IMG/VR virus record: IMGVR_UViG_3300037486_000366
Coordinates: 1 to 61,175 of that record
Direction: 5' to 3' (one strand)
Length of the DNA stretch: 61,175 nucleotides
DNA from: a virus
Taxonomy: Duplodnaviria; Caudoviricetes
Shown piece after piece: positions 46,001-60,166 of this stretch (positions are counted from its first letter, which is position 1; every line of letters starts with the position of its first letter). The translations under genes and the position numbers were made by a program. Below the pieces are notes generated by a model. The model was not told the origin of the DNA. It ran no database searches and saw nothing but the letters and a program-made list of their open reading frames with translations.

Positions 46001-46204
46001 TTATAATTTTGGCCTCGATACAATTATAGCAATCATTGATCCTACTACTGAAAGTAAAGTTACAATAACCCACCCTAATATTTGATTAAACTTACTCGAT
46101 AAGCATGAGTGCAATAGTTCCTGTTTTTTAAATAAGTCAGCACACATCTTATCTATATTCTCATGTTTTTCGTCACAAAGTTCTTTGATATACTCCTTCG
46201 TCAT
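46001..46204 (-). CDS. Small membrane protein with C-terminal TM helix (lysis-adjacent)
   Basis: ATGA overlap with holin; ILGWVIVTLLSVVGSMIAIIV. Confidence 0.65.
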   Translation of the reverse strand: MTKEYIKELCDEKHENIDKMCADLFKKQELLHSCLSSKFNQILGWVIVTLLSVVGSMIAIIVSRPKL

Positions 46205-46698
46205 TTACCATTCCTCGTTTTTTCCCAGCTTCGTAAACCACCCATTCCAAGTAAAGCTGCCACCAAACCAAGAATCTCCTCTGCGTGAAAAGTATTTGGA
46301 TAAGGAGGCATCACTGCCGCTGCAACATTAGTTGTATTGTAAAGAATCATAAAGCACTGAGTTATCCAAACGAAGGACGCAATTAGTGCTTGTGGAATAT
46401 AATAAGCTCCAAGAGAAATACCACAAACCCAACCTATAAATGGTCGCCAACCAGCAACAAACACATTCGCACTTGCCGCCTCTATCTTGTTTATTTCAAC
46501 CTGTCCCTGATCAATAAGCGCCTGTAATTCAGCCCCTCGTTGTATAAGCCTAGCTTCTTCTTCTGGACTTACTTTACCTCTGATTGCAGAGGCAATATCT
46601 TGAATGAAGCCGCCAATACCCTCAAAAACTTTCTTTACCCCTTCGCCAGCTTCTCTCACAACATTACCATCTATCTTAACATCAGAAATAAGCCCCAT
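46201..46698 (-). CDS. Holin, GTA 3TM holin family
   Basis: Q.EINKIEA...FVAGWRPFIGWVCG...LLGMGGLRSWEK. Confidence 0.88.
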   Translation of the reverse strand: MGLISDVKIDGNVVREAGEGVKKVFEGIGGFIQDIASAIRGKVSPEEEARLIQRGAELQALIDQGQVEINKIEAASANVFVAGWRPFIGWVCGISLGAYYIPQALIASFVWITQCFMILYNTTNVAAAVMPPYPNTFHAEEILGLVAALLGMGGLRSWEKTRNGK

Positions 46699-46710: not shown

Positions 46711-47412
46711 TTACGCAAAAATATCAGTTCCAATAAATGGTTTATCAAAACCTGACAATATACAGGCATGATTTGCAAAGTCTAATGCAACATTTAAATT
46801 TAATACAGGAACTTTATAAGCTTCATTATTAGTACAACATTGTCTATATCGTAAAAAATGAAGAGCAATTTTATCTTCATCTTCAGAAGTAAGTTCATCT
46901 TTATATTGCATTGACCTAAACATTATATGTATCTTACCAAATGACTTCGGGCTATGACAAAATCTTGCCTTCACATCAAGATTAGGGTAATACTGAGAAA
47001 GATAAGTATTAATATACTGTATATCTAATGGGCAAAACCAACAACGCATTTCATATGGCAATTCATTATCAATACAAATTTGTGCTGCTTTTAAACAGGG
47101 CACACTCCCTTTAAGTGCTTTTGCTGGTTCGGTAAACTCTGCCCCTAACTTCCCATCATAGAAATATCCTTCAAGATATTGTTTCCAATTAATATTCCAC
47201 CCAGTTAATAAAGCAAATCCTGGCCAATCATACATATAAGCAGTTTTATTAGCAATCATCCAAGTAAGACAATCAAGATGAGACTGTTTAACGTCACTCA
47301 TAGTTATACTCTGGACTATATTAACTGGATATGCCCACATTGCTCGTCCTAAAAGATATTGTTTAAGCACTGATAATTGTACAGTATCTGTTATTGTATA
47401 TGTCCAATTCAT
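46711..47412 (-). CDS. Cys-containing protein of unknown function (radical SAM cassette)
   Basis: ATGA overlap with the glycosyltransferase; 9 Cys; no recognised family. Confidence 0.7.
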   Translation of the reverse strand: MNWTYTITDTVQLSVLKQYLLGRAMWAYPVNIVQSITMSDVKQSHLDCLTWMIANKTAYMYDWPGFALLTGWNINWKQYLEGYFYDGKLGAEFTEPAKALKGSVPCLKAAQICIDNELPYEMRCWFCPLDIQYINTYLSQYYPNLDVKARFCHSPKSFGKIHIMFRSMQYKDELTSEDEDKIALHFLRYRQCCTNNEAYKVPVLNLNVALDFANHACILSGFDKPFIGTDIFA

Positions 47413-48398
47413 AATAATGCTATAAACTCCTGTTTAAATTGTTCATAGTTAAATCTTTCTTTACCTGCCAATGCTATTATATGGGCTTCTTTTTCAAAAC
47501 TGGAAAGATCAGCATTTTTTATTTCCAAAAGATTTGCTATCATAGTATCAACATCATTTGTTTCATAATGAAGACCATCACACCAATTTACCCAATTTCC
47601 ATCAAACGTTCCAGAGTTCCTATCATTTACAATTAATGGAATTGTCCCAGTAAAAATAGCTTGCATAATAGTTGCATTAAAAGGTTCATACCCATCATGT
47701 GGTAAAATAAAGAATTTATAGTTATTAAGTTCTTTAGGCACCTCTGACTGTTTAATAAAGCTATTTAACTTTAAATTACCTGAGGATTGTGCACTAAACA
47801 ATAGATCATAGTAATCATTTTTAGATATAGGAAAAGACCAAGTCCAAGAAGGTTCTTCAGCATTCCACATTTTCCCAAAACACTCAATAAACAAGTCAGT
47901 TTGTTTTATCTTCTGAATAAACTCAACAGAAAATTTATGAGGAAGAACATGCCCAAAATAACAGAATAAGTTACGTTTGTTCCATGGAATCACGTAAGAA
48001 AAAATATCTGCTGTTGGGTAAAAACGATTCAATATTTTTGAATCATACAGAGTAGTAACAGCAGCAGGTTTCTTATTCAATATAACTATATATTCTGCCT
48101 TATTAAATAGTGGAACATACTCAGGTAAAAATAATTCTTTCCAAACATGTGCAATAACAATTAAACGTGTTGATGGATTATCAGTAATATAATTAAGAAT
48201 ATGTGTTATGACATTCGGGTAAAGCTCATTTAAAATAATTAAATCAGGAGTAAGTAAACTAAATGCATCATAGTAATTAATTCCTTGTTGCTTTATTACT
48301 GATATATCTGGATTTGCTTCTTTTACCCATTCACCAATAATTGAACCATAGTATTCAATGGCTGAACCAACATTAAGATTTACAAATACTATTTTCAT
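47409..48398 (-). CDS. GT-B fold glycosyltransferase (GT4-like)
   Basis: MKIVFVN, PDLIILNE, FCYFGH, FFILP...YEPFNATIMQAI.TG..P (E-x7-E/Q motif). Confidence 0.78.
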   Translation of the reverse strand: MKIVFVNLNVGSAIEYYGSIIGEWVKEANPDISVIKQQGINYYDAFSLLTPDLIILNELYPNVITHILNYITDNPSTRLIVIAHVWKELFLPEYVPLFNKAEYIVILNKKPAAVTTLYDSKILNRFYPTADIFSYVIPWNKRNLFCYFGHVLPHKFSVEFIQKIKQTDLFIECFGKMWNAEEPSWTWSFPISKNDYYDLLFSAQSSGNLKLNSFIKQSEVPKELNNYKFFILPHDGYEPFNATIMQAIFTGTIPLIVNDRNSGTFDGNWVNWCDGLHYETNDVDTMIANLLEIKNADLSSFEKEAHIIALAGKERFNYEQFKQEFIALL

Positions 48399-48874
48399 TC
48401 TTTACTCCTTAAGGAATCGAGATACATCTTTGTAAACTCAATTGTTGGAAGCATATAAATCTTTTCTAATGCTTCTATTCTATGAAACAGTCTTTTTGTC
48501 ATATAAAACAAATCTTCAAGTGAATGTCTCATTCGATAGATTGCCTCAACTCGGTTTATTGCGTCACTAATATATTTATCTTTAACGGAACTTTCATTCC
48601 AGCTTTTAATTAAAAAGCAATATTTTTCAATAAACATGGCAAATTCCTTGGTTATTGGAACCTCAAAAAACACCCCAAAAAATGTATCTAACCACTTTGA
48701 AACCATAGGAATTTGTTCTTGTGCTAACTTATCTTCCCCATCAACTAATTTAATACATGAAGTAGCAACATTATTAATCTGTGCTCTGATCTCATCAAGG
48801 TGAGGACCTTTAAATGGAGATAATTCTACTTCTTTTAAGAGCTCTAAACTAAGTTTTTCAATTTGATCTTTCAT
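48395..48874 (-). CDS. Helical protein of unknown function (radical SAM cassette)
   Basis: ATGA overlaps on both sides. Confidence 0.7.
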   Translation of the reverse strand: MKDQIEKLSLELLKEVELSPFKGPHLDEIRAQINNVATSCIKLVDGEDKLAQEQIPMVSKWLDTFFGVFFEVPITKEFAMFIEKYCFLIKSWNESSVKDKYISDAINRVEAIYRMRHSLEDLFYMTKRLFHRIEALEKIYMLPTIEFTKMYLDSLRSKE

Positions 48875-50043
48875 AAAGTATTCCTTAATGAGTCTATTAT
48901 TTCATGTTTATGGTGAATAAGTTGACACACAGAAGGAATTGGGGTAAACATATCCCCAGTTGATTCATACTGTGCCCCTAAACATTGCCCCATACACTTA
49001 TCTTTTATTCCACACATATTACAATATGGTTGATTCTTAAAATCACAATAATGAGTTGCTACATACAGAGTAAAATTCTTTTCATTTGTCCCAACAATCT
49101 TATTCTCTTCCACTTTCATATCAAATAATTCAAACTCTTTATACATTAACCTATGACAGGGAAAACTTTTTAAATCACCCAAACGAATATGATAATGAGG
49201 TTGAAGAGCACATGCCAAACCTTTATTTGTTTTAGCATAAATATTAGTTAAAATATTAAAACCTTTATGTTGGGCGAATAAATCATTAACATTTCCTTTG
49301 CTTGCTAAATACCCCATAAGATAAGTAATAAATTTTCCATATTGTTTTATTTGTTCTTCTGACCATTCTGCATTACGTACTTCTAATAAGTATAGAAAGA
49401 ACCATGGAAAATCATATAATTTAAGCATATCTTGGAACCAATTAAAGTTATCAATCCATCGTTCTATACCATTAGAATACACCATTGGGTGAAAACCAAC
49501 ATCTCCAGTTTTCTTAACAAATTCAAAGGCTGTATTATACCAGTATTGATCCCTATGACCATAAATACATGGGCGATTTTCATCATCCATGAACGGTCCA
49601 TCAAAAGAAGCGCTATTAAACAATATTGCTCCTTTATCTTTAAACTTTTTCTTATATGAAAATATCTTGTCCTCATTACCAGTAAAAATAAAATTAAAGT
49701 TTGTGGGAACAACACAACGCAACCCTGACCAGGCATAAGAAAGAATTAAATCAAGTAATTCAAACCCTATTTGTTGTGAGTAAAGTTCTCCTGAAAATAT
49801 CTCAAGATTAGGTTTCCAATTATTTTTTTTCAACCACTCAAATACTAATACTGCATTAGAAATAATTTTTTCTTCATCTTGTGTTCCTGAAGGAAATAAC
49901 TTATCTCTATGTCTATGAATATAACAGTAAGTGCACATATTATCACATTTACCATTAACAATAAGTTCAAGGGTAAAAAACGAATTTTCTTTCTCCCAAG
50001 CTTTATAGAATGTACGCGATAATAAATTATCAAGTAAAGTCAT
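48871..50043 (-). CDS. Radical SAM/SPASM-domain enzyme
   Basis: CDNMCTYC, FSGE, SFDGP; SPASM cysteines C..PCH and CNMCGIKDKCMGQC...C. Confidence 0.93.
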   Translation of the reverse strand: MTLLDNLLSRTFYKAWEKENSFFTLELIVNGKCDNMCTYCYIHRHRDKLFPSGTQDEEKIISNAVLVFEWLKKNNWKPNLEIFSGELYSQQIGFELLDLILSYAWSGLRCVVPTNFNFIFTGNEDKIFSYKKKFKDKGAILFNSASFDGPFMDDENRPCIYGHRDQYWYNTAFEFVKKTGDVGFHPMVYSNGIERWIDNFNWFQDMLKLYDFPWFFLYLLEVRNAEWSEEQIKQYGKFITYLMGYLASKGNVNDLFAQHKGFNILTNIYAKTNKGLACALQPHYHIRLGDLKSFPCHRLMYKEFELFDMKVEENKIVGTNEKNFTLYVATHYCDFKNQPYCNMCGIKDKCMGQCLGAQYESTGDMFTPIPSVCQLIHHKHEIIDSLRNTL

Positions 50044-51214
50044 TCATAACCTCAGCAATATATTTATCATATTCAGCATAACAAAAAAGTTGAATAAGGT
50101 TCAAATCAACTAAGTTGATAGATCCCATATTTATCAATTCAGCTTTACATGCTCCAGTAACCATGACCAATAATAAAGACATAAATGATCGACGTTGTGG
50201 ATCATTATAAACATCACTTATTTTATTTGCTAATAACAACTCAATCATTAACATATTAACTAATGCAAGACGAAAAGCATAATAACGATGAAAACCATTA
50301 ATAAGATATAAAAACCGTGAACTATCTTCCACAAATGAATATTCTTTCCTAAACTTTTGTTGTGGAAATAAGAAATATTGACACAGTGTTTTTTCCTTTA
50401 CTGTTGTAGCAATTGCAGATCTTCCAGCTGAACACTGGGCTCCATAATGATATGAAGAAAAATCAGACAAATTTAATATAGTATTTATAAACAAGGGCTC
50501 CATGGGATAAACTACATATGGAACAGTCTTTCTTAACTGCTTCATATGCTCAATAACTATTTTAAATGCTTGTATTTGCTCATCAGTATAGTTTCCAGGA
50601 TAACACGGTCCAGGAGCAAGACAAACATAATTATCTCTATATCCTGCTTTAATTAAAATATCAGTAACATTTTTCATATAACTATAGTATTCATATATCA
50701 TCTGAACGTTTTTAGCAAGATAAGTATAATGTTCTGGCCCCCATGTAACTTTATATCTCATAGTTAAATTTTTATACGTATGTTCTGTTACAAAATCAAG
50801 CAGCCCTTGTAATCCAGCATGTATTTGCTCATGTTTCTTTCTTCCTATTTTTGTGAGTTCTGGAGGGCCATCTATTGAAAACTGAACATCTAATTTAAAA
50901 TTATAAAGCTCTACTTTTTTAATAAATCTTTTTACTGGGGCAATATCTATAAGGTTTGTTGAGAACATAATCTTTTTTAAGTTTTTAAAACGATTAACAA
51001 TATAATCAAGATCATCAATTAAATAATCAAGATTAATAGTAGGTTCTCCTCCCCATAAACTTAGGTCTTCAATCTCTAATGGGACATTTTCCCATATTTT
51101 TCTACTTTTAATGCTATGTATAACTTCATCATTATTCATAGTTTTATCTAATAAACAATATGAACAATCGAGTTGACATTTAGATGATAATAATATTTGT
51201 GACCCTATAAACAT
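50030..51214 (-). CDS. Radical SAM enzyme with partial (twitch-like) auxiliary domain
   Basis: CQLDCSYC, WGGEPT, STN, FSIDGP; QCSAG...LC and GAC...FC. Confidence 0.92.
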   Translation of the reverse strand: MFIGSQILLSSKCQLDCSYCLLDKTMNNDEVIHSIKSRKIWENVPLEIEDLSLWGGEPTINLDYLIDDLDYIVNRFKNLKKIMFSTNLIDIAPVKRFIKKVELYNFKLDVQFSIDGPPELTKIGRKKHEQIHAGLQGLLDFVTEHTYKNLTMRYKVTWGPEHYTYLAKNVQMIYEYYSYMKNVTDILIKAGYRDNYVCLAPGPCYPGNYTDEQIQAFKIVIEHMKQLRKTVPYVVYPMEPLFINTILNLSDFSSYHYGAQCSAGRSAIATTVKEKTLCQYFLFPQQKFRKEYSFVEDSSRFLYLINGFHRYYAFRLALVNMLMIELLLANKISDVYNDPQRRSFMSLLLVMVTGACKAELINMGSINLVDLNLIQLFCYAEYDKYIAEVMNDFT

Positions 51215-51216
51215 AA

Positions 51217-51663
51217 TTAAGAAATACCTGCATTATTATAAGTACCATTATAACCGGTATTATGTGTACTATAATGTGTTGTATAATGTGTAGCCCTATA
51301 AGTAGTAAGATTAGAAGATAAATGCGTAGTATAATGAGTAGCACAATAACTTGCATTATGTGTTGCTAAGTAAGTAACAAGATTAGAGGCTAAATGTGTT
51401 GCTAAATAAGTTGCATAATAAGTATGACAGTAATTATTAGTATGAGCTTCATCAAGGGCAGTTCGTAATTGAAGATAATCCATTGTACCTGTACCAGAAT
51501 CCTGTCTTGTAGGATCATATTGTGCTGGTGTTCTACTCCATGAATAGGCTCCTAAACCTGTTAATGAACGTAAAGTATCTATATTCGTCTGTAGTTCAGT
51601 AACATGAGAGGCTTTAGGTTTTGTTACATATTGTGTAAGTGCTTCAGCCCATGAAAAAGACAT
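51217..51663 (-). CDS. Tetrapeptide-repeat protein B (candidate radical SAM substrate, tail-associated)
   Basis: AGAGGAG RBS before ATG 51663; C-terminal 17 repeats YCHT YYAT YLAT HLAS NLVT YLAT HNAS YCAT HYTT HLSS NLTT YRAT HYTT HYST HNTG YNGT YNNA. Confidence 0.8.
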   Translation of the reverse strand: MSFSWAEALTQYVTKPKASHVTELQTNIDTLRSLTGLGAYSWSRTPAQYDPTRQDSGTGTMDYLQLRTALDEAHTNNYCHTYYATYLATHLASNLVTYLATHNASYCATHYTTHLSSNLTTYRATHYTTHYSTHNTGYNGTYNNAGIS

Positions 51664-51692
51664 TTTGTTTTTCTCCTCTTGAGTAGCGACCG

Positions 51693-52040
51693 CTACCCGC
51701 CAATTGCCCCACCGCAATCACCAGAAAGAAAACCATTCCAATGAGTCCCATAGTGAGCTCCTCTATTAGTAGCATAATGGGGGACTAAATTAGTAACAAG
51801 ATAGGTACCACAATAACTTGCATCATGAGTAGCTAAATAAGTAGTAAGATTAGAAGATAAGTGTGTAGTATAATGAGTGGGGCAATAACTTGCATTATAT
51901 GCAGTTAAATGAGTGGTATGGTGAGTTGCACAATAAGCAAGATTATTATGAAGCCAATCAGAATTATCTCGTATTTCTTGAACATCTACACGTTCATCGT
52001 TTAATCTTTGTGCAATAGTTTGTGCCCATGTAAAAGCCAT
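51693..52040 (-). CDS. Tetrapeptide-repeat protein A (candidate radical SAM substrate, tail-associated)
   Basis: Starts 1 nt after the tail fibre stop; YCAT HHTT HLTA YNAS YCPT HYTT HLSS NLTT YLAT HDAS YCGT YLVT NLVP HYAT NRGA HYGT HWNG... Confidence 0.8.
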   Translation of the reverse strand: MAFTWAQTIAQRLNDERVDVQEIRDNSDWLHNNLAYCATHHTTHLTAYNASYCPTHYTTHLSSNLTTYLATHDASYCGTYLVTNLVPHYATNRGAHYGTHWNGFLSGDCGGAIGG

Positions 52041-52041
52041 C

Positions 52042-53265
52042 TTATTTCACCTTTACCCAATGTCGTTTTCGTACTTCTATACCATTCCAGATAGGGTTCA
52101 ATTCTTCCCTCAAAAAAGTAGCTATAATTCTTTCCGGGTAATTTTTACAAGATACTCTTGTCATTCTCGTAAGTTTACCATTTTTATCACTAGTTAAAGG
52201 TGTACCAGGAACATACACTCTATCAACACAGGCAAGAACATACCCAGCCACAGAAATAGGAATACTGTTCTTCTTAACCCCAACCCCGAAACCATAAGTA
52301 TCAGAAGCAATTCCAATTATTCCTACTTGACAGTATTGAGTTGATAAGGTAACTTCCCTGCCTTTCATTACGTATACTCTACCAAATTCAATTTTAAGTT
52401 TATGCTCTAACTCCAAGAAGTCAGCAATATCATTATAAACTGCATTATATATTTTTCCTGAAGAAAGTCTTCCATGTGTATCTGGAGTTTCTGATGGGGC
52501 TGATGCATCAGAATGCCAAATAATAGCGAGGTTTTGAGCACTTGCATTTTGAAAATAAAACTGTGCTGCTGCACCATCAGCTGCAGTATTTTTAAATGTT
52601 ATAGTAGTGCCACAAACTATGGTTGCACTATTTGCTGTAATTGTGCCCCCAGTACTAACTAAAGTAAGTCCAGAAATTGTACCAGAAGCAGCAGTAATAT
52701 TACCAGAACTTGTTAATGTAGCCCCAGATATTGTACCAGAAGAAGCAGTAATGTTGCCAGTACTAATAAGAGTAGCCCCAGAGATTGTACCAGCCGCTGC
52801 AGTAATATTACCAGTACTAACAAGAGTACCTGCAGAAATTGTACCAGAAGCAGCAGTAATATTGCCAGAGGCTGTTAGAGTAGTAACATCAAGTCTTTGT
52901 GCGCTACCCCACCAAGCTTGTTCTCTTGGAAGATTCGTAACTGTTGCGGTACCTGCACCTCCAAACACTTGATATGGTCCTGCTTCTACAGTACCATTAA
53001 TTGTCAGGGTTTTAAGAGCAGTAACAGTTAAAAGACAACCTTTAGGAAGTTTTAATGTTACATTTGCTGGAATAGTTAAATTATCAGTCACAGTCCATGT
53101 GCCTGGACGAAGAAGCAAAGTAACTGTATCACCACCAATTGCTGCTAATGCAGTATTTAATGTTGCTAAAGTAAAATTATTACTTGTCCCATATCTTACT
53201 AAAGCATCTACTTCATTAAGAACATGAAGACCACCAATTAAAGTTCCAGCAAGTAATTGTGCCAT
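52042..53265 (-). CDS. Tail fibre with C-terminal intramolecular chaperone / autocleavage domain
   Basis: 18-aa Thr/Gly repeats; YNAVYNDIADFLE...IGIASDTYGF..G...P....G.V...ERII...WVKVK resembles Peptidase_G2-type chaperone domains. Confidence 0.8.
   Translation of the reverse strand: MAQLLAGTLIGGLHVLNEVDALVRYGTSNNFTLATLNTALAAIGGDTVTLLLRPGTWTVTDNLTIPANVTLKLPKGCLLTVTALKTLTINGTVEAGPYQVFGGAGTATVTNLPREQAWWGSAQRLDVTTLTASGNITAASGTISAGTLVSTGNITAAAGTISGATLISTGNITASSGTISGATLTSSGNITAASGTISGLTLVSTGGTITANSATIVCGTTITFKNTAADGAAAQFYFQNASAQNLAIIWHSDASAPSETPDTHGRLSSGKIYNAVYNDIADFLELEHKLKIEFGRVYVMKGREVTLSTQYCQVGIIGIASDTYGFGVGVKKNSIPISVAGYVLACVDRVYVPGTPLTSDKNGKLTRMTRVSCKNYPERIIATFLREELNPIWNGIEVRKRHWVKVK
52648..52881 (-). 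repeat. Four-plus 54-bp (18-aa) tandem repeats in the tail fibre shaft
   Basis: TTGTACCAG...GCAGTAAT anchors at 52677, 52731, 52785, 52839; TLxSxGNITAxxGTISxx. Confidence 0.9.
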
Positions 53266-56884: not shown

Positions 56885-57538
56885 TCACCAATTTGAAAAT
56901 GGAGGTTGTTGAACTCTAAAAGATAAACGTGTTCTACCAGTCTTTTTTATCTTTTTAGCAGTTGACCTATCTGCCTGAAATAAATCTTCAAAATATTCTC
57001 CCTCACGAATATTTGTCCAGGCTTGTTTAGGTAACTTAAAAATACGCCCGAATACTCCATACTTAATACAATCAAACCAATCATCGTAGATATAATCAGG
57101 AATTACTGTTGCAGTCAACTTTGGTTTTAAAGAAGCCCAAATTTCAAGGCCACCAGCAACACTTTCAGTTGGGATATACCTGAAACGAAATATTTTCTCA
57201 ATATCTGCTAAATAAGTGATTTGACCAGAAGAGGTCTGTTGGCGCCAAGCATCTGCACTACTATCAAGGACTTCCATTGAATCTGGAGTAAGAAATCCTC
57301 CAGAGAATTCAGCTCGTTCTACATTAACAACTGATGCTTGTAAAGCTACTGGGGCAACTAAAGCATATTCTGCTACACCTATTGTTACATTAATTGCGTC
57401 TAGTTTTTCCTGCCATGTACCAGTCGTAGCACAGAAATCACGAATTGAATTCATTACTTCGCGATCAATTATGTCTTTTGGACAACCAGGAATACCCTCT
57501 GAAACATCAGCTAACCAATCATTAATAGAGTAAGGCAT
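56885..57538 (-). CDS. Head-tail connector protein
   Basis: PGCP.......IRDFC..T..W, LKP...A..IPD, W.N pattern of podophage adaptors. Confidence 0.7.
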   Translation of the reverse strand: MPYSINDWLADVSEGIPGCPKDIIDREVMNSIRDFCATTGTWQEKLDAINVTIGVAEYALVAPVALQASVVNVERAEFSGGFLTPDSMEVLDSSADAWRQQTSSGQITYLADIEKIFRFRYIPTESVAGGLEIWASLKPKLTATVIPDYIYDDWFDCIKYGVFGRIFKLPKQAWTNIREGEYFEDLFQADRSTAKKIKKTGRTRLSFRVQQPPFSNW

Positions 57539-59164: not shown

Positions 59165-60166
59165 TTACGGATTGAGTGTAACAGAAGTCTCAGCTCGCAG
59201 CATCCAAGCATCATTAAGGATAACTGCTTTCTGCATTGACTTCCATGATACGTGGCCTCTCTGTGCTAACGGGTCACTATCACTTGGGGTTGGATTAACG
59301 ACCATAGGAACAATAGCATTGGGTCCTTTCAGAGGAACAATACCATATGCGTTTGAACCAAGATAAATGATCGGATATATATCAGCGTTTGTCCCAGCAG
59401 TAGAAATCATTTCTGTACCAGAACCTGATTTTGCCGCCCCACCATCTGCCCAAGGAACAAAAATAGTGGAGTAAATATACCGGACATCTTCAACCTTACC
59501 GATTTCAGACTCATACGGTGTAAGCTGTCCATACTCTTCCACAGGCACGAAACCAGGAAGATTACGAATGTCTGCTTCACAATCAGAGTGACAAAGGGCA
59601 ATAAAGGCCGGCGCAACGTTAGCAGTACCGAAAGCTGCAGTTGATCGAACAACTTTACTGATCTTCTTGGCCATCTGGCGTTTAAGATAACGAGTGATTC
59701 TTCGTTGCAGAGAAAGAGTAATAGGGGTATTGACATCAGTACGCTGCGTACCATTTGCATAATACACATTTGTTCCAGCTTTAATAACCCCGAAACGTGC
59801 TACTTCAACCATCTGAGCAGCTTGTTCTCCAAGGACTTCCTGAGCTTCTTTGAAAACTGGATCTTCGTGAGTGTCCTGGATAACGTCAGTAATAGTAATT
59901 CTATCACCAAGCTGTTCGAGGGTGACTGATACATCCGTAGAGGTAAGCTGTTTTCCAGTAGGCGTCACCCCTTCAACAAGCACATTAGGAGTATTGTCCA
60001 AGGAATTGTATCGCCTGAAATTCATGGTCTTTGAATTGTTTGCAGGTAATGGTTTTGCCTGCCCAAATTTTTCTATTACAAGATAAGGAAGAGCTCTTTC
60101 AAGAAATTCCTTAGCTGCAAATGCTGCAGTACGAGGAGATATATCTCCATATTTAGTTATAGCCAT
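59165..60166 (-). CDS. Major capsid protein, N4-gp56 family
   Basis: YGDISPRTAA, KFGQ.KPLP.N.SKT..FRRY, EGVTP, EIGKVE.VR, DPLAQRG.VSWK. Confidence 0.92.
   Translation of the reverse strand: MAITKYGDISPRTAAFAAKEFLERALPYLVIEKFGQAKPLPANNSKTMNFRRYNSLDNTPNVLVEGVTPTGKQLTSTDVSVTLEQLGDRITITDVIQDTHEDPVFKEAQEVLGEQAAQMVEVARFGVIKAGTNVYYANGTQRTDVNTPITLSLQRRITRYLKRQMAKKISKVVRSTAAFGTANVAPAFIALCHSDCEADIRNLPGFVPVEEYGQLTPYESEIGKVEDVRYIYSTIFVPWADGGAAKSGSGTEMISTAGTNADIYPIIYLGSNAYGIVPLKGPNAIVPMVVNPTPSDSDPLAQRGHVSWKSMQKAVILNDAWMLRAETSVTLNP

What the first reader, a model, noticed from the sequence alone, without database searches (positions are those of the whole stretch)
51217..52040. Two proteins with a strict 4-residue register: [H/Y/N]-x-[A/T/S]-[T/S]
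Seen: about 20 (protein A) and 17 (protein B) consecutive tetrapeptides with His/Tyr/Asn at position 1 and small residues at positions 3-4. There is also a 24-residue super-period (YCxT HYTT HLSS NLTT YLAT HxAS). The N-termini carry a [FY][ST]W...E[LI][RQ]...D motif, once in A and twice in B, resembling short helical anchor domains of phage tail proteins. Known: triceptide rSAM enzymes link an aromatic residue to C-beta of residue i+2. Inference: each tetrapeptide could be a three-residue cyclophane (His/Tyr to Ala/Thr/Ser) plus one spacer, making a rigid poly-cyclophane rod. Alternatives are Cys-based thioether links or regular epimerisation into a D/L beta-helix like polytheonamide. The N-terminal motif may serve as both leader and virion anchor.
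Basis: partly seen in the sequence, partly recalled or inferred. Interest (0 to 1): 0.9.

Follow-up and report, generated by a model that had tools for sequence, protein, structure and literature searches.

The report
Radical-SAM cassette for phage repeat proteins
An uncultivated sediment phage encodes, between its tail-fibre-like gene and its lysis gene, two small proteins with a strict four-residue repeat next to two radical-SAM enzymes that most likely modify them, a gene set shared by many other uncultivated viruses and described in no paper I could find.

Summary
Proteins A (115 aa, 51693-52040) and B (148 aa, 51217-51663), both on the minus strand, have His/Tyr/Asn at the first tetrad position in 17 of 20 and 17 of 17 tetrads. 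None of 20000 shuffles reaches this. The 24-residue super-period is not supported.

The genes form a tight late operon: a beta-helix tail-fibre-like gene, A, B, two paralogous radical-SAM enzymes (one full SPASM), a helper of about 160 aa, a glycosyltransferase, then the holin.

The core of this cassette recurs in 155 metagenomic stretches, 7 viral loci and 15 genome loci.

Period 4 is family-wide. It is the best period in 47 of 59 cores and is locked to an invariant junction Cys in 50 of 56. The aromatic position is not conserved: it reads Tyr, Val, His, Asp or Asn, and a sister subfamily has period 5. A poly-cyclophane rod is therefore possible for this phage but is not the general logic.

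A relative's core models as a beta-solenoid. In two relatives the module sits at the C-terminal end of lectin-type proteins.

Best reading: radical-SAM-matured, tail-associated repeat proteins of unresolved chemistry. This scan flagged the same family earlier on other DNA (e1-6132874, e1-5966249, e1-817784).

The parts
52042..53265 (-). Tail-fibre-like protein, 407 aa. It has an internal beta-helix-type repeat and a C-terminal domain shared with tail proteins upstream of the cassette in other loci.
   Evidence: Weak FapA beta-solenoid hit. It belongs to a BLAST cluster found in 20 of 103 loci. One cluster member, L055 (968 aa), carries Prophage_tail (34.5 bits, above the cut-off) and a weak Peptidase_G2 hit. 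There is no PHROG and no PDB sequence match for the window's own protein, so the name rests on context.
51693..52040 (-). Repeat protein A, 115 aa. It has one leader module (residues 1-36), an invariant junction Cys37 (51930-51932), then about 20 tetrads.
   Evidence: W5, E22, D28 and C37 are invariant in 25 short-leader homologs. Its start codon lies 1 nt after the tail-fibre stop.
51217..51663 (-). Repeat protein B, 148 aa. It has two leader modules (residues 1-78), an invariant junction Cys79 (51427-51429), then 17 tetrads.
   Evidence: M1, W5 and C79 are invariant in 33 homologs. AF2 gives the leader pLDDT 89-94 (residues 1-40) and 84-89 (residues 61-80). The core falls from about 70 to below 50.
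50030..51214 (-). Radical SAM enzyme 1, 394 aa. It has CxxxCxxC at residues 13-20 and a C-terminal C...CHR half-motif, but no full SPASM Cys set.
   Evidence: Pfam Fer4_12 and Radical_SAM. phrog_1802 at 4.5e-17. Invariant C13, C17, C20, C261 and C278 in 8 homologs. Paralog of enzyme 2 (hhalign 98%, E 1.4e-13).
48871..50043 (-). Radical SAM/SPASM enzyme 2, 390 aa. It has CxxxCxxC at residues 33-40 and seven further invariant Cys.
   Evidence: C278, C296, C341, C344, C350, C354 and C373 are invariant in 6 homologs. SPASM domain model 24.1 bits against a cut-off of 27. The best PDB sequence matches of the family profile are 5wgg and 8vpo, E about 1e-8.
48395..48874 (-). Helper protein, 159 aa, of no known family. 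It follows enzyme 2 directly.
   Evidence: Homologs in 79 of 103 loci. No Pfam or NCBIfam hit. The Atlas model is helical with low confidence.
47409..48398 (-). GT-B-type glycosyltransferase-like protein, 329 aa.
   Evidence: Homologs in 27 of 103 loci. In L045 the homologous part is fused to enzyme 1 and hits Glycos_transf_1 at 50.6 bits. The window's own protein has only a weak Exostosin hit.
46711..47412 (-). 233-aa protein of unknown function. It lies in the operon but is not a conserved part of the cassette.
   Evidence: No family hit. It is absent from the common neighbour clusters.
46201..46698 (-). Holin, which marks the downstream border of the cassette.
   Evidence: PF11351 at 2.3e-9. 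phrog_3427 holin at 7.5e-18.

Best explanation
A and B are dedicated protein substrates of a phage-borne radical-SAM maturation cassette in the late, structural part of the genome.

Anatomy of the substrates. Each has an N-terminal recognition or assembly part built of one (A) or two (B) copies of a W...ELR module. This module also occurs in tandem copies in large extracellular proteins. An invariant Cys follows, and then a variable polar core whose four-residue register is counted from that Cys:
- phase 0: large or polar residue
- phases 1-2: small residues (Ser/Ala/Thr/Gly)
- phase 3: Tyr/Val/His/Asp/Asn

Proposed mechanism (inferred). The two paralogous radical-SAM enzymes, together with the helper of about 160 aa, install covalent modification(s) on this protein. 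One modification is probably centred on the junction Cys. In this phage a glycosyltransferase then decorates the Ser/Thr-rich repeat. The matured core forms an extended beta-solenoid-like rod or adhesin that works with the tail fibre on the virion, not as a small diffusible peptide.

Shown here: the repeat, the operon, the conserved gene set, the register lock, and the fusions.

Inferred: that the enzymes act on A and B, virion association, and the fold.

Unknown: the chemistry.
For: Operon. The genes abut or overlap from the tail-fibre-like gene to the holin. No terminator-like site lies on the minus strand inside the cassette. The major head protein and a virion structural protein lie upstream on the same strand.

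Recurrence. Enzyme-2 relatives were found in 155 of 261 metagenome stretches (80 kept), 7 viral loci and 15 genome loci. Over 103 loci, some of which are the same contig held in two collections, enzyme 1 is present in 93, the helper in 79 and the GT in 27. Leader ORFs at E<=0.01 number 77 in 51 loci. The repeat-protein BLAST cluster covers 58 loci.

Confinement to the cassette. Four of the five whole genomes searched had leader matches, and all 8 lie inside the cassette loci.

Register. The best period is 4 in 47 of 59 analysed cores, and z>=3 in 47. The register is locked to the junction Cys in 50 of 56. Cys is 100% conserved, with D at -8 (60%), D at -4 (58%) and N at -2 (61%), in 62 junctions.

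Fusions.
- L099: Laminin_G_3 (7.3e-25) + leader + period-4 core.
- P0138: 960 aa with DUF5000/galactose-binding-like domains + leader + core, z4 7.2.
- L045: Radical_SAM + Glycos_transf_1 in one protein.

Tail context. Homologs of the window's tail-fibre-like gene are in 20 loci.

Fold. The AF2 model of relative L056 (390 aa) has about 30 units of a 5-residue strand plus a 3-residue turn, with pLDDT 70-80 over residues 130-220. Its best structural neighbours are beta-helix adhesins and antifreeze proteins: 3pr7 (Z 15.2, rmsd 8.2, 216 aligned) and 3p4g (Z 13.7, rmsd 2.9, 171 aligned).

Enzymes. Both are peptide-maturase-like. PapB is matched by 6 of 6 enzyme-2 homologs and 8 of 8 enzyme-1 homologs.
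Against: - There are no protein-level data: no virion proteomics and no mass data. No RNA run was available.
- Most loci were fetched through enzyme 2, so co-occurrence with the enzymes is partly circular. The leader-first scans of viral contigs returned only two contigs, both already known.
- The site between tail fibre and lysis genes is also a classic place for accessory cargo genes.
- The window's tail-fibre-like protein has no family hit of its own.
- The window's own cores are not confidently modelled. AF2 draws a helix with pLDDT falling below 50.
- The beta-solenoid model comes from a relative with an 8-residue Val-rich repeat. Z values of 13-15 are near the range that repeats reach by arrangement alone (note).
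- All family hits of the enzymes lie far under the curated cut-offs, so they name no chemistry.
- Some loci lie in CPR and archaeal MAG contigs and may be cellular rather than viral.
Confidence: 0.55

Rival explanations
1. First reader's model. Each tetrad is a three-residue cyclophane (His/Tyr ring carbon linked to C-beta of the Ala/Thr/Ser two residues on) plus a spacer, made by a triceptide-type radical-SAM enzyme. The product is a rigid poly-cyclophane rod.
For: - In the window, 15 of 20 (A) and 15 of 17 (B) tetrads start with an aromatic or His residue. Position 3 is mostly Ala/Thr/Ser.
- His-x-Ala, His-x-Arg and His-x-Lys cyclophanes made by HaaB, YhhB and HtkB are documented, as are precursors with several His motifs (PMC11499958, first of three parts read).
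- After PapB, the families matched by the most enzyme-1 homologs are cyclophane formers: YhhB, GrrM/OscB and AmcB, 6 of 8 members each, best E 3.4e-10.
Against: - The aromatic position is not conserved. Across 56 cores it is Y 19%, V 17%, H 13%, D 12%, N 9%, with 4% aromatic in L056.
- Position 3 is Gly, which has no C-beta, in 10%.
- A sister subfamily with the same enzyme pair has period 5.
- The window's enzymes score 18.4 bits (AmcB, cut-off 425), 15.2 (YhhB, cut-off 445) and 12.1 (FxsB, cut-off 370).
- PapB-type hits are stronger than the cyclophane-former hits.
Confidence: 0.12
2. The main radical-SAM step is a single thioether (sactionine- or ranthionine-type) or another modification at the invariant junction Cys. 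It staples the leader-core boundary, and the repeats themselves stay unmodified by the radical-SAM enzymes.
For: - The Cys is invariant and sets the register.
- Enzyme 2 has the full SPASM Cys set.
- The families matched by all 6 enzyme-2 homologs are PapB, QhpD and the nif11-type maturase. The SCIFF maturase is matched by 5 of 6.
- The best PDB sequence match of the enzyme-2 profile is 5wgg. An earlier scan note, and my own recall, name it CteB, a thioether former. I did not check this name.
- 31 of 70 cores have no other Cys.
Against: - Scores lie far under the cut-offs (34.7 bits against 340).
- No conserved acceptor residue stands at a fixed distance after the Cys: position +3 is H 40%, D 19%, Y 18%, and position +4 is N 24%, Y 21%, D 13%.
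- This model does not explain why two enzymes are needed, or why a strict repeat is kept.
Confidence: 0.25
3. A and B are precursors of a diffusible product, such as a bacteriocin or a signal, that is cut from its leader and released at lysis. This would make the cassette cargo with no part in the virion.
For: - The layout is a conserved leader with a more variable core. In 21 pairs, leader identity averages 65% against 47% for the core.
- There are two precursor genes directly before the modifying enzymes.
- The cassette occupies a cargo-type position before the lysis genes.
Against: - No protease or exporter is a conserved part of the cassette (neighbour clusters).
- Cores reach 200-317 residues.
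- The module occurs at the C-terminal end of lectin-type proteins of 558 and 960 aa.
- The leader module is a common building block of large extracellular proteins.
Confidence: 0.1
4. The cassette is a phage-borne counterpart of the bacterial HXS defence. A radical-SAM-matured His-rich repeat protein blocks DNA entry of competing phages (superinfection exclusion).
For: - The architecture matches: two radical-SAM enzymes, a small partner and a repeat protein with His-x-Ser/Thr/Ala units.
- In HXS the enzymes are needed to mature HxsA, which stops phage DNA entry (PMC13128918, abstract and section 9 read).
- There are weak hits to HxsB (4.3e-5) and HxsC (5.2e-4).
Against: - Scores of 22.4 and 19 bits stand against cut-offs of 370 and 267.9.
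- The helper has no HxsD hit.
- No signal peptide or peptidoglycan-binding domain was seen in A or B (by eye on the sequences; no family hit).
- The genes sit in the late structural operon of a phage in which I noticed no integrase (not searched for systematically).
- His is not conserved across the family.
Confidence: 0.06
5. The repeats are an ordinary, unmodified structural beta-solenoid, possibly metal-binding, and the radical-SAM enzymes act on something else.
For: - A relative's core models as a beta-solenoid without any modification.
- His/Tyr/Asn/Asp/Ser/Thr-rich ladders suit metal or sugar binding (inference).
Against: - The repeat genes are tightly and repeatedly linked to the enzyme pair.
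- The genes are coupled in one operon.
- The invariant Cys is placed exactly at the start of the repeat.
Confidence: 0.07

Closest known systems
HXS antiphage system (HxsA matured by the radical-SAM enzymes HxsB and HxsC with the small protein HxsD; PMC13128918)
   Same: It also has two radical-SAM enzymes (one SPASM-type, one shorter), a small partner protein, and a whole protein with short His-containing repeats as substrate. There are weak sequence hits to HxsB and HxsC.
   Different: HXS is bacterial and defensive. HxsA has five period-3 HxS repeats and a peptidoglycan-binding domain. Here the system is viral and late-expressed, with period 4 (period 5 in a sister group), 17-80 repeats, a different N-terminal module and an invariant Cys. 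Scores lie far below the family cut-offs, and the helper shows no likeness to HxsD.
Triceptides (three-residue cyclophane RiPPs made by radical-SAM/SPASM enzymes such as HaaB, YhhB, HtkB and GrrM/OscB; PMC11499958)
   Same: The window's cores carry many aromatic-x-small motifs of the kind these enzymes cross-link. Enzyme-1 homologs hit YhhB, GrrM/OscB and AmcB weakly.
   Different: The aromatic residue is not conserved across the family. The curated cut-offs are not reached. Substrates are up to 390 aa and some are fused to lectin domains. The cassette has two enzymes plus a helper, in a virus.
Thioether-forming SPASM maturases (PapB ranthipeptide, QhpD, SCIFF/CteB)
   Same: These give the best family hits for enzyme 2: PapB 6 of 6, QhpD 6 of 6, SCIFF 5 of 6. 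They also give the best PDB sequence match, 5wgg. The full SPASM Cys set is present, as is an invariant Cys in the substrate.
   Different: Their substrates are short and Cys-rich. Here 31 of 70 cores have only the junction Cys. Scores are about one tenth of the cut-offs.
CXXX-repeat peptide system (NCBIfam TIGR04114 target, TIGR04115 maturase). Earlier notes of this scan report it in phage tail modules.
   Same: It pairs a period-4 repeat substrate with radical-SAM maturases. By those notes (unchecked here), it also lies beside tail-fibre genes.
   Different: The repeated residue there is Cys. Here Cys makes up 6% of one phase. TIGR04115 matches 1 of 6 enzyme-2 homologs and 2 of 8 enzyme-1 homologs, weakly, and neither enzyme of the window.
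Beta-solenoid fibres and adhesins (for example the trimeric autotransporter head 3pr7 and the Ca-dependent antifreeze beta-helix 3p4g)
   Same: The AF2 model of a family member is a regular strand-turn solenoid, and its best structural neighbours are these proteins.
   Different: This is a resemblance of a moderate-confidence model only. There is no sequence relation, and the window's own cores were not modelled confidently.

Membership tests
Triceptides / 3-residue cyclophane RiPPs | The precursor core carries aromatic-X-X motifs (aromatic = W/F/Y/H) whose third residue has a C-beta (definition as given in PMC11499958). | tested here: met
   In the window, 15 of 20 (A) and 15 of 17 (B) tetrads start with H/Y/F, and position 3 is mostly A/T/S. 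The feature is not conserved in relatives: about 35% of that position is Y/H/F/W across 56 cores.
Triceptides / 3-residue cyclophane RiPPs | The maturase belongs to a cyclophane-forming radical-SAM family (curated models YhhB, AmcB, GrrM/OscB, FxsB). | tested here: not met
   Window enzyme 1 scores AmcB 18.4 bits (cut-off 425) and YhhB 15.2 (cut-off 445). Enzyme 2 scores FxsB 12.1 (cut-off 370). Family-wide hits are weak, 6 of 8 members, best E 3.4e-10.
Triceptides / 3-residue cyclophane RiPPs | A loss of 2 Da per motif, with a ring-to-C-beta bond shown by MS/MS or NMR. | not testable with these tools
   This needs co-expression and mass spectrometry.
HXS system | Paired maturases HxsB and HxsC by the curated models TIGR03978 and TIGR03977. 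| tested here: not met
   Enzyme 2 scores 22.4 bits on HxsB (cut-off 370). Enzyme 1 scores 19 bits on HxsC (cut-off 267.9). Among homologs, 4 of 6 and 2 of 8 match weakly.
HXS system | An HxsA-type substrate (His-Xaa-Ser repeats of period 3, peptidoglycan-binding domain) and the small partner HxsD. | tested here: not met
   A, B and the helper have no NCBIfam hit at E<=1. The period is 4, with z3 below 3 in 58 of 59 cores.
HXS system | Gene-set architecture: two radical-SAM enzymes, a small protein and a repeat-bearing protein substrate. | tested here: met
   This is a likeness of architecture only.
Ranthipeptide / sactipeptide / SCIFF-type thioether systems | A maturase with a radical-SAM motif plus the full SPASM auxiliary-cluster Cys set. 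| tested here: met
   In enzyme 2, C33/C37/C40 and C278, C296, C341, C344, C350, C354 and C373 are invariant in 6 homologs. Enzyme 1 lacks the CX2CX5CX3C part.
Ranthipeptide / sactipeptide / SCIFF-type thioether systems | The maturase reaches the curated family score (PapB NF047865, SCIFF TIGR03974). | tested here: not met
   PapB 34.7 bits against 340. SCIFF 11.7 bits against 425.
Ranthipeptide / sactipeptide / SCIFF-type thioether systems | A Cys-rich core with several donor Cys. | tested here: not met
   31 of 70 cores have no Cys beyond the junction Cys. In the window, A has 4 and B has 2 Cys in the repeat register.
CXXX-repeat peptide system (TIGR04114 / TIGR04115) | A Cys at every fourth residue of the target, and a TIGR04115 maturase. 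| tested here: not met
   Cys is 6% of phase 0. The window's enzymes have no TIGR04115 hit at E<=1. Weak hits occur in 1 of 6 and 2 of 8 homologs.
Proteusin-type epimerised beta-helix (polytheonamide-like) | A PoyD-type radical-SAM epimerase and an NHLP/Nif11-type leader. | tested here: inconclusive
   No epimerase model appears among the listed hits, and the leader has no Pfam hit. The nif11-associated maturase model is matched weakly by 6 of 6 enzyme-2 homologs. Stereochemistry cannot be tested here.
Beta-solenoid fibre or adhesin fold | The repeat region folds as a regular beta-helix. | tested here: inconclusive
   Relative L056 models as a strand-turn solenoid with pLDDT 70-80 over residues 130-220, and its neighbours score Z 13-15. 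The window's B models as a low-confidence helix.

The most novel reading that the evidence does not exclude
The radical-SAM pair works processively along the repeat, counting in steps of four from the junction Cys. It cross-links or otherwise rewires every unit: His/Tyr-to-C-beta cyclophanes in this phage, other C-alpha or C-beta chemistry at Val/Asp/Asn units in relatives. A virus would then build a covalently rigidified, glycosylated host-recognition rod from a ribosomal protein, bringing peptide-antibiotic-type radical chemistry to a virion structural part.
Probability: 0.12. Interest if true: 0.95.

Novelty: new variant of a known kind. Interest (0 to 1): 0.7.

Why it matters
Radical-SAM maturation is known for small antibiotic-like peptides, for cofactors and, since 2026, for one bacterial anti-phage protein. 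Here a dedicated enzyme pair with helper sits in the structural gene block of viruses, next to proteins with a strict, Cys-anchored four-residue repeat.

The gene set is common in uncultivated viruses of anoxic habitats: 155 metagenomic stretches encode the enzyme. The leader profile matches 4512 protein clusters. Many of the best 150 are larger proteins that carry the module without the repeat core, while 72 have a period-4 core.

If the proteins are modified virion parts, this adds a new layer of post-translational chemistry to phage host recognition. It would also offer a natural scaffold of up to about 80 identical modification sites for enzymology and for engineered repeat materials.

The question is directly testable by co-expression and mass spectrometry.

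Tried and rejected
- Complex prediction: three copies of A with its alignment gave 'no answer' (score 0.08, mark 0.42; the partner's own fold was uncertain). This counts neither for nor against trimer formation.
- Fold searches with the B model: nothing specific. BFVD best E 1.0. PDB-wide best Z 5.2, with generic helices only.
- Foldseek of the L056 model against PDB: no match at E<=0.001.
- Phage-collection DNA search with the cassette: no match.
- Searches for longer, fused forms through the word-indexed protein search: none, which is weak evidence by the tool's own note. Fused forms were then found by other routes.
- Genome-collection scan with the leader pattern: none.
- Leader-first scans of viral contigs: only the contigs of L004 and L008.
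- Pfam and PHROGs on 34 leaders: no consistent family; the top family matches 2 of 34.
- Protein Atlas for the helper: no usable hit.
- PDB sequence search for the tail-fibre-like protein: nothing.
- Sequencing runs: no RNA holder listed. All four holders are DNA contigs, which show presence only.
- Promoter and terminator scan: counts equal the shuffled expectation, so it was used only to note that no terminator-like site lies on the minus strand inside the cassette.
- Literature: six searches found no description of a viral radical-SAM cassette with such repeat proteins. Only search listings were seen for most papers. Supplements are closed and were not seen; those of PMC13128918 and PMC11499958 may hold family lists that bear on membership.
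- Rejected idea: a 24-residue coil as the reason for a super-period.
- Rejected idea: recent DNA-level tandem duplication as the cause of the repeat.
Full report
**1. What is at the coordinates**

The window is a complete 61175-base virus record. Two adjacent ORFs fill 51217-52040 on the minus strand.
- Protein A: 51693-52040, 115 aa.
- Protein B: 148 aa from the ATG at 51663, which follows a GGAG. All homologs start at the same M-x-F-x-W. The mechanical ORF runs up to a TTG at 51717.

Read in fours, A has His/Tyr/Asn at the first position in 17 of 20 tetrads and B in 17 of 17. Positions 3 and 4 are mostly Ala/Thr/Ser. Counts are 11 and 15 of 20 in A, and 13 and 16 of 17 in B. None of 20000 shuffles of either core reaches the observed number of full matches (10 and 12; shuffle maxima 6 and 7).

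Tandem Repeats Finder sees only three weak 12-nt arrays, so the pattern is kept at the protein level.

The claimed 24-residue super-period is not there. Identity at lag 24 equals that of shuffles which keep the period-4 make-up (z 0.6 and 1.1). A and B merely share one 14-residue stretch.

The N-terminal W...E-[LI]-[RQ] motif occurs once in A and twice in B.

Contigs of four sediment-metagenome runs cover the region without a listed difference.

**2. Surroundings**

On the same strand, abutting or overlapping by a few bases, lie these genes in order:
- a major head protein (59165-60166; phrog_1357, 2.4e-53)
- a virion structural protein (56885-57538; phrog_437)
- a 1014-aa protein
- a 407-aa protein with beta-helix-type repeats (52042-53265)
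- A
- B
- radical SAM enzyme 1 (50030-51214)
- radical SAM/SPASM enzyme 2 (48871-50043)
- a 159-aa protein without family
- a GT-B-like protein (47409-48398)
- a 233-aa unknown
- a holin (46201-46698; PF11351, phrog_3427)

No terminator-like site lies on this strand inside the cassette.

Enzyme 1 and enzyme 2 are paralogs (hhalign 98%, E 1.4e-13, 324 columns). Enzyme 2 keeps seven invariant Cys after the CxxxCxxC motif, which is a full SPASM set. Enzyme 1 keeps only a C...CHR half-motif.

**3. The gene set elsewhere**

*Protein search.* A word-indexed search with B found 10 proteins at E<=0.01 among 42 candidates. Two of them are the window's own. All have a conserved N-terminal part, an invariant Cys and a variable core.

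*Locus scans.* Scans with an alignment of enzyme 2 gave:
- 7 viral loci
- 155 relatives among 261 metagenome stretches, 80 of them kept
- 15 loci in one-genome-per-species collections

The genome loci lie in CPR/Parcubacteria and archaeal MAG contigs and in Oscillospiraceae, Lachnospiraceae, Roseburia and Halanaerobium.

*Local HMMs over 103 loci.* Several loci are the same contig held in two collections, and many are cut short. Counts:
- enzyme 1 in 93 loci
- the helper in 79
- the glycosyltransferase in 27
- leader-bearing ORFs (E<=0.01): 77 in 51 loci, with two or more in 25 of these 51

*Neighbour clustering.* Unsupervised clustering of neighbours gave four common families only:
- the enzymes (103 loci)
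- the helper (74 loci, plus 5 in a second cluster)
- the repeat proteins (58 loci, 111 ORFs)
- homologs of the window's 407-aa protein (20 loci)

One of the last group (L055) carries a Prophage_tail domain and a weak Peptidase_G2 hit.

*Circularity check.* These loci were fetched through the enzyme, so I searched five whole genomes with the leader profile. Four had matches, and all 8 matches lie inside the cassette loci. Leader-first scans of viral contigs returned only two contigs, both with the enzymes.

**4. The repeat across the family**

*Period.* There are 68 distinct leader ORFs, and 59 could be analysed. The best period is 4 in 47 and 8 in 2. The period-4 z-score is 3 or more in 47. 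For period 3 this holds in 1, and for period 5 in none.

*Register.* It is counted from the invariant Cys. In 50 of 56 cores the two small positions start one residue after it.

| Phase (Cys = phase 0) | Main residues |
|---|---|
| 0 | D 22%, N 20%, Y 14% |
| 1 | S 28%, A 14%, T 13%, G 10% |
| 2 | T 27%, S 20%, G 14% |

*The aromatic position.* The period of four is a family trait, but the aromatic residue is not. The window is an extreme His/Tyr-rich member (74-82% aromatic at phase 3). L056 has 4% there, in a Val-x-small-Gly-x-Asp-x-Thr octad.

*Junction.* It reads E-L-R-x-A-L-D-x-A-x-D-x-N-x-C-x-[TSA]-[HDY], with Cys in 62 of 62. In 31 of 70 cores there is no further Cys.

*Sister subfamily.* The Oscillospiraceae-type loci encode 361-425-aa proteins with a period-5 repeat (z 41-51 in 5 of 5) next to the same enzyme pair and helper.

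*Conservation.* Leaders are better kept than cores. In 21 pairs, mean identity is 65% against 47%.

**5. The leader is a common building block**

A profile of 34 leaders, read against 1.84 billion representatives, matched 4512 proteins at E<=0.001 and 995 at E<=1e-10.

Among the best 150:
- 98 have the junction-Cys motif
- 96 of these have a core of 24 residues or more
- 72 of those show period 4 (z>=3)

The remainder are largely bigger proteins. They include a subtilase, Ig-like proteins and a protein with InlB B-repeat-type domains. These carry two or three tandem copies of the module, most often near the C-terminal end, without a repeat core. Pfam and PHROGs do not cover the module.

AF2 models the leader of B with confidence: pLDDT 89-94 for residues 1-40 and 84-89 for residues 61-80. 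It draws an extended start followed by a helix, twice.

Three natural fusions bear on function:
- L099: a 558-aa protein with Laminin_G_3 (7.3e-25), then a short leader, the Cys and a period-4 core.
- P0138: 960 aa with DUF5000/galactose-binding-like domains, then leader, Cys and core, z4 7.2.
- L045: enzyme 1 fused to a Glycos_transf_1 domain. By my local HMMs the same holds in L027 and L030.

In L016 and L021 the core is followed by a Hint-type self-cleaving domain. The hit is weak (30.3 bits against a cut-off of 32.1).

**6. Fold**

The window's own cores are not modelled with confidence. AF2 continues the leader helix into the core, with pLDDT falling from about 70 to below 50.

For relative L056 (390 aa) AF2 gives about 30 units of a five-residue strand and a three-residue turn. 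pLDDT is 70-80 over residues 130-220 and the mean is 61.6.

An exhaustive structure comparison ranks beta-helix adhesins, curli, antifreeze beta-helices and an S-layer protein first:
- 3pr7: Z 15.2, rmsd 8.2, 216 aligned
- 8c50: Z 13.7
- 3p4g: Z 13.7, rmsd 2.9, 171 aligned
- 3ult: Z 13.1, 25% identity over 114

By the tool's own note such Z values are near what repeats reach by arrangement alone, so this is a lead on fold class and not a proof.

**7. What the enzymes resemble**

All hits lie far under the curated cut-offs and assign no chemistry.

| Enzyme | Family matches among homologs |
|---|---|
| Enzyme 2 | PapB 6 of 6 (best 1.4e-18); QhpD 6 of 6; nif11-type maturase 6 of 6; SCIFF maturase 5 of 6; HxsB 4 of 6 |
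| Enzyme 1 | PapB 8 of 8 (best 1.7e-14); cyclophane formers YhhB, GrrM/OscB and AmcB 6 of 8 each; HxsC 2 of 8 |

The enzyme-2 profile's best PDB sequence matches are 5wgg and 8vpo. The window's own enzymes score 34.7 and 34.8 bits on PapB against a cut-off of 340.

**8. Reading**

*Substrates.* The repeat proteins are most simply the substrates of the enzyme pair. This rests on gene linkage, operon coupling, the Cys-anchored register and the enzyme-glycosyltransferase fusion.

*Virion-associated protein rather than a small free peptide.* Several points favour this:
- long cores
- fusion to lectin-type proteins
- a leader that is a common module of large extracellular proteins
- the tail-fibre neighbourhood
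- the beta-solenoid-like model

None of this is protein-level evidence. The site before the lysis genes also suits cargo genes.

*The poly-cyclophane proposal.* It fits the window's sequence and documented His cyclophanes (PMC11499958).

*A junction-Cys modification.* A modification centred on the invariant Cys (thioether or other) is the best-supported single guess at chemistry, but it is still weak.

*HXS.* It is the nearest described system in architecture (PMC13128918; abstract and section 9 read). It is not a family the window's proteins belong to.

**9. Novelty and earlier notes**

Six literature searches found no description of such a viral cassette.

Earlier notes of this scan describe what appears to be the same family on other DNA: e1-6132874, e1-5966249 and e1-817784. 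Other notes describe a Cys-every-fourth family in other phages. I used these as leads and tested them:
- The spike-like or solenoid idea is partly borne out.
- Membership in the CXXX-repeat system is not met.
- HXS is a likeness of architecture only.

Noticed in passing
L007:6001-7311, L070:4935-6314, L073:740-1624, L079:266-1060, L086:2116-3384, L090:4998-6173, L098:3916-5091: In seven related loci the enzyme-2 gene stays in one reading frame but is interrupted only by TAG codons (1 to 9 per gene; no TAA or TGA). These viruses probably read TAG as an amino acid.
   Followed up: partly
L016:69-929 and L021:2459-3307: A short leader plus period-4 core is followed in the same ORF by a Hint/intein-like domain. 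Several Hint models match the same 40 residues (best 30.3 bits, just under the cut-off). This suggests self-cleavage or transfer at the C-terminal end of the core.
   Followed up: partly
L045:2436-4958, L027:2461-4953, L030:2468-4960: Radical SAM enzyme 1 is fused to a group-1 glycosyltransferase domain in one protein of about 830 aa. This was checked by Pfam in L045 only. It ties the sugar transferase to the radical-SAM step.
   Followed up: partly
L009:3576-4661, L010:3531-4670, L011:3384-4661, L102:753-1892, L105:3576-4661: Oscillospiraceae-type loci carry 361-425-aa proteins with a very regular five-residue repeat (Gly, Thr/Ser, x, Ser/Thr, Asn/Asp/Tyr...). They sit next to the same enzyme pair and helper, between tail-fibre-like genes and lysis genes.
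   Followed up: partly
P0018, P0032, P0036, P0042, P0064, P0076, P0077, P0094, P0122, P0125, P0150: The W/Y-T-D...K-A-x-H-[IV]-T-E-L-R module of the leader occurs in two or three tandem copies, mostly near the C-terminal end, in large extracellular-looking proteins (a subtilase, Ig-like and other domains). No Pfam model covers it, so it is an undescribed and very common module (4512 representative clusters at E<=0.001).
   Followed up: partly
L012:3386-10795: One metagenomic contig carries the cassette twice in tandem (two enzyme-1 genes, two enzyme-2 genes, two helpers) with three leader-bearing ORFs.
   Followed up: no
L004:2-2200 and L004:3562-4011: The tail-fibre-like genes upstream of the cassette in this viral contig are built of long Gly-Tyr-Ser-Gly-Ser-Gly-Val-Ser-type repeats. 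This is another low-complexity fibre repeat in the same module.
   Followed up: no
window 46711-47412: A 233-aa gene lies inside the operon between the glycosyltransferase and the holin. It has no family hit and is not conserved in related cassettes.
   Followed up: no
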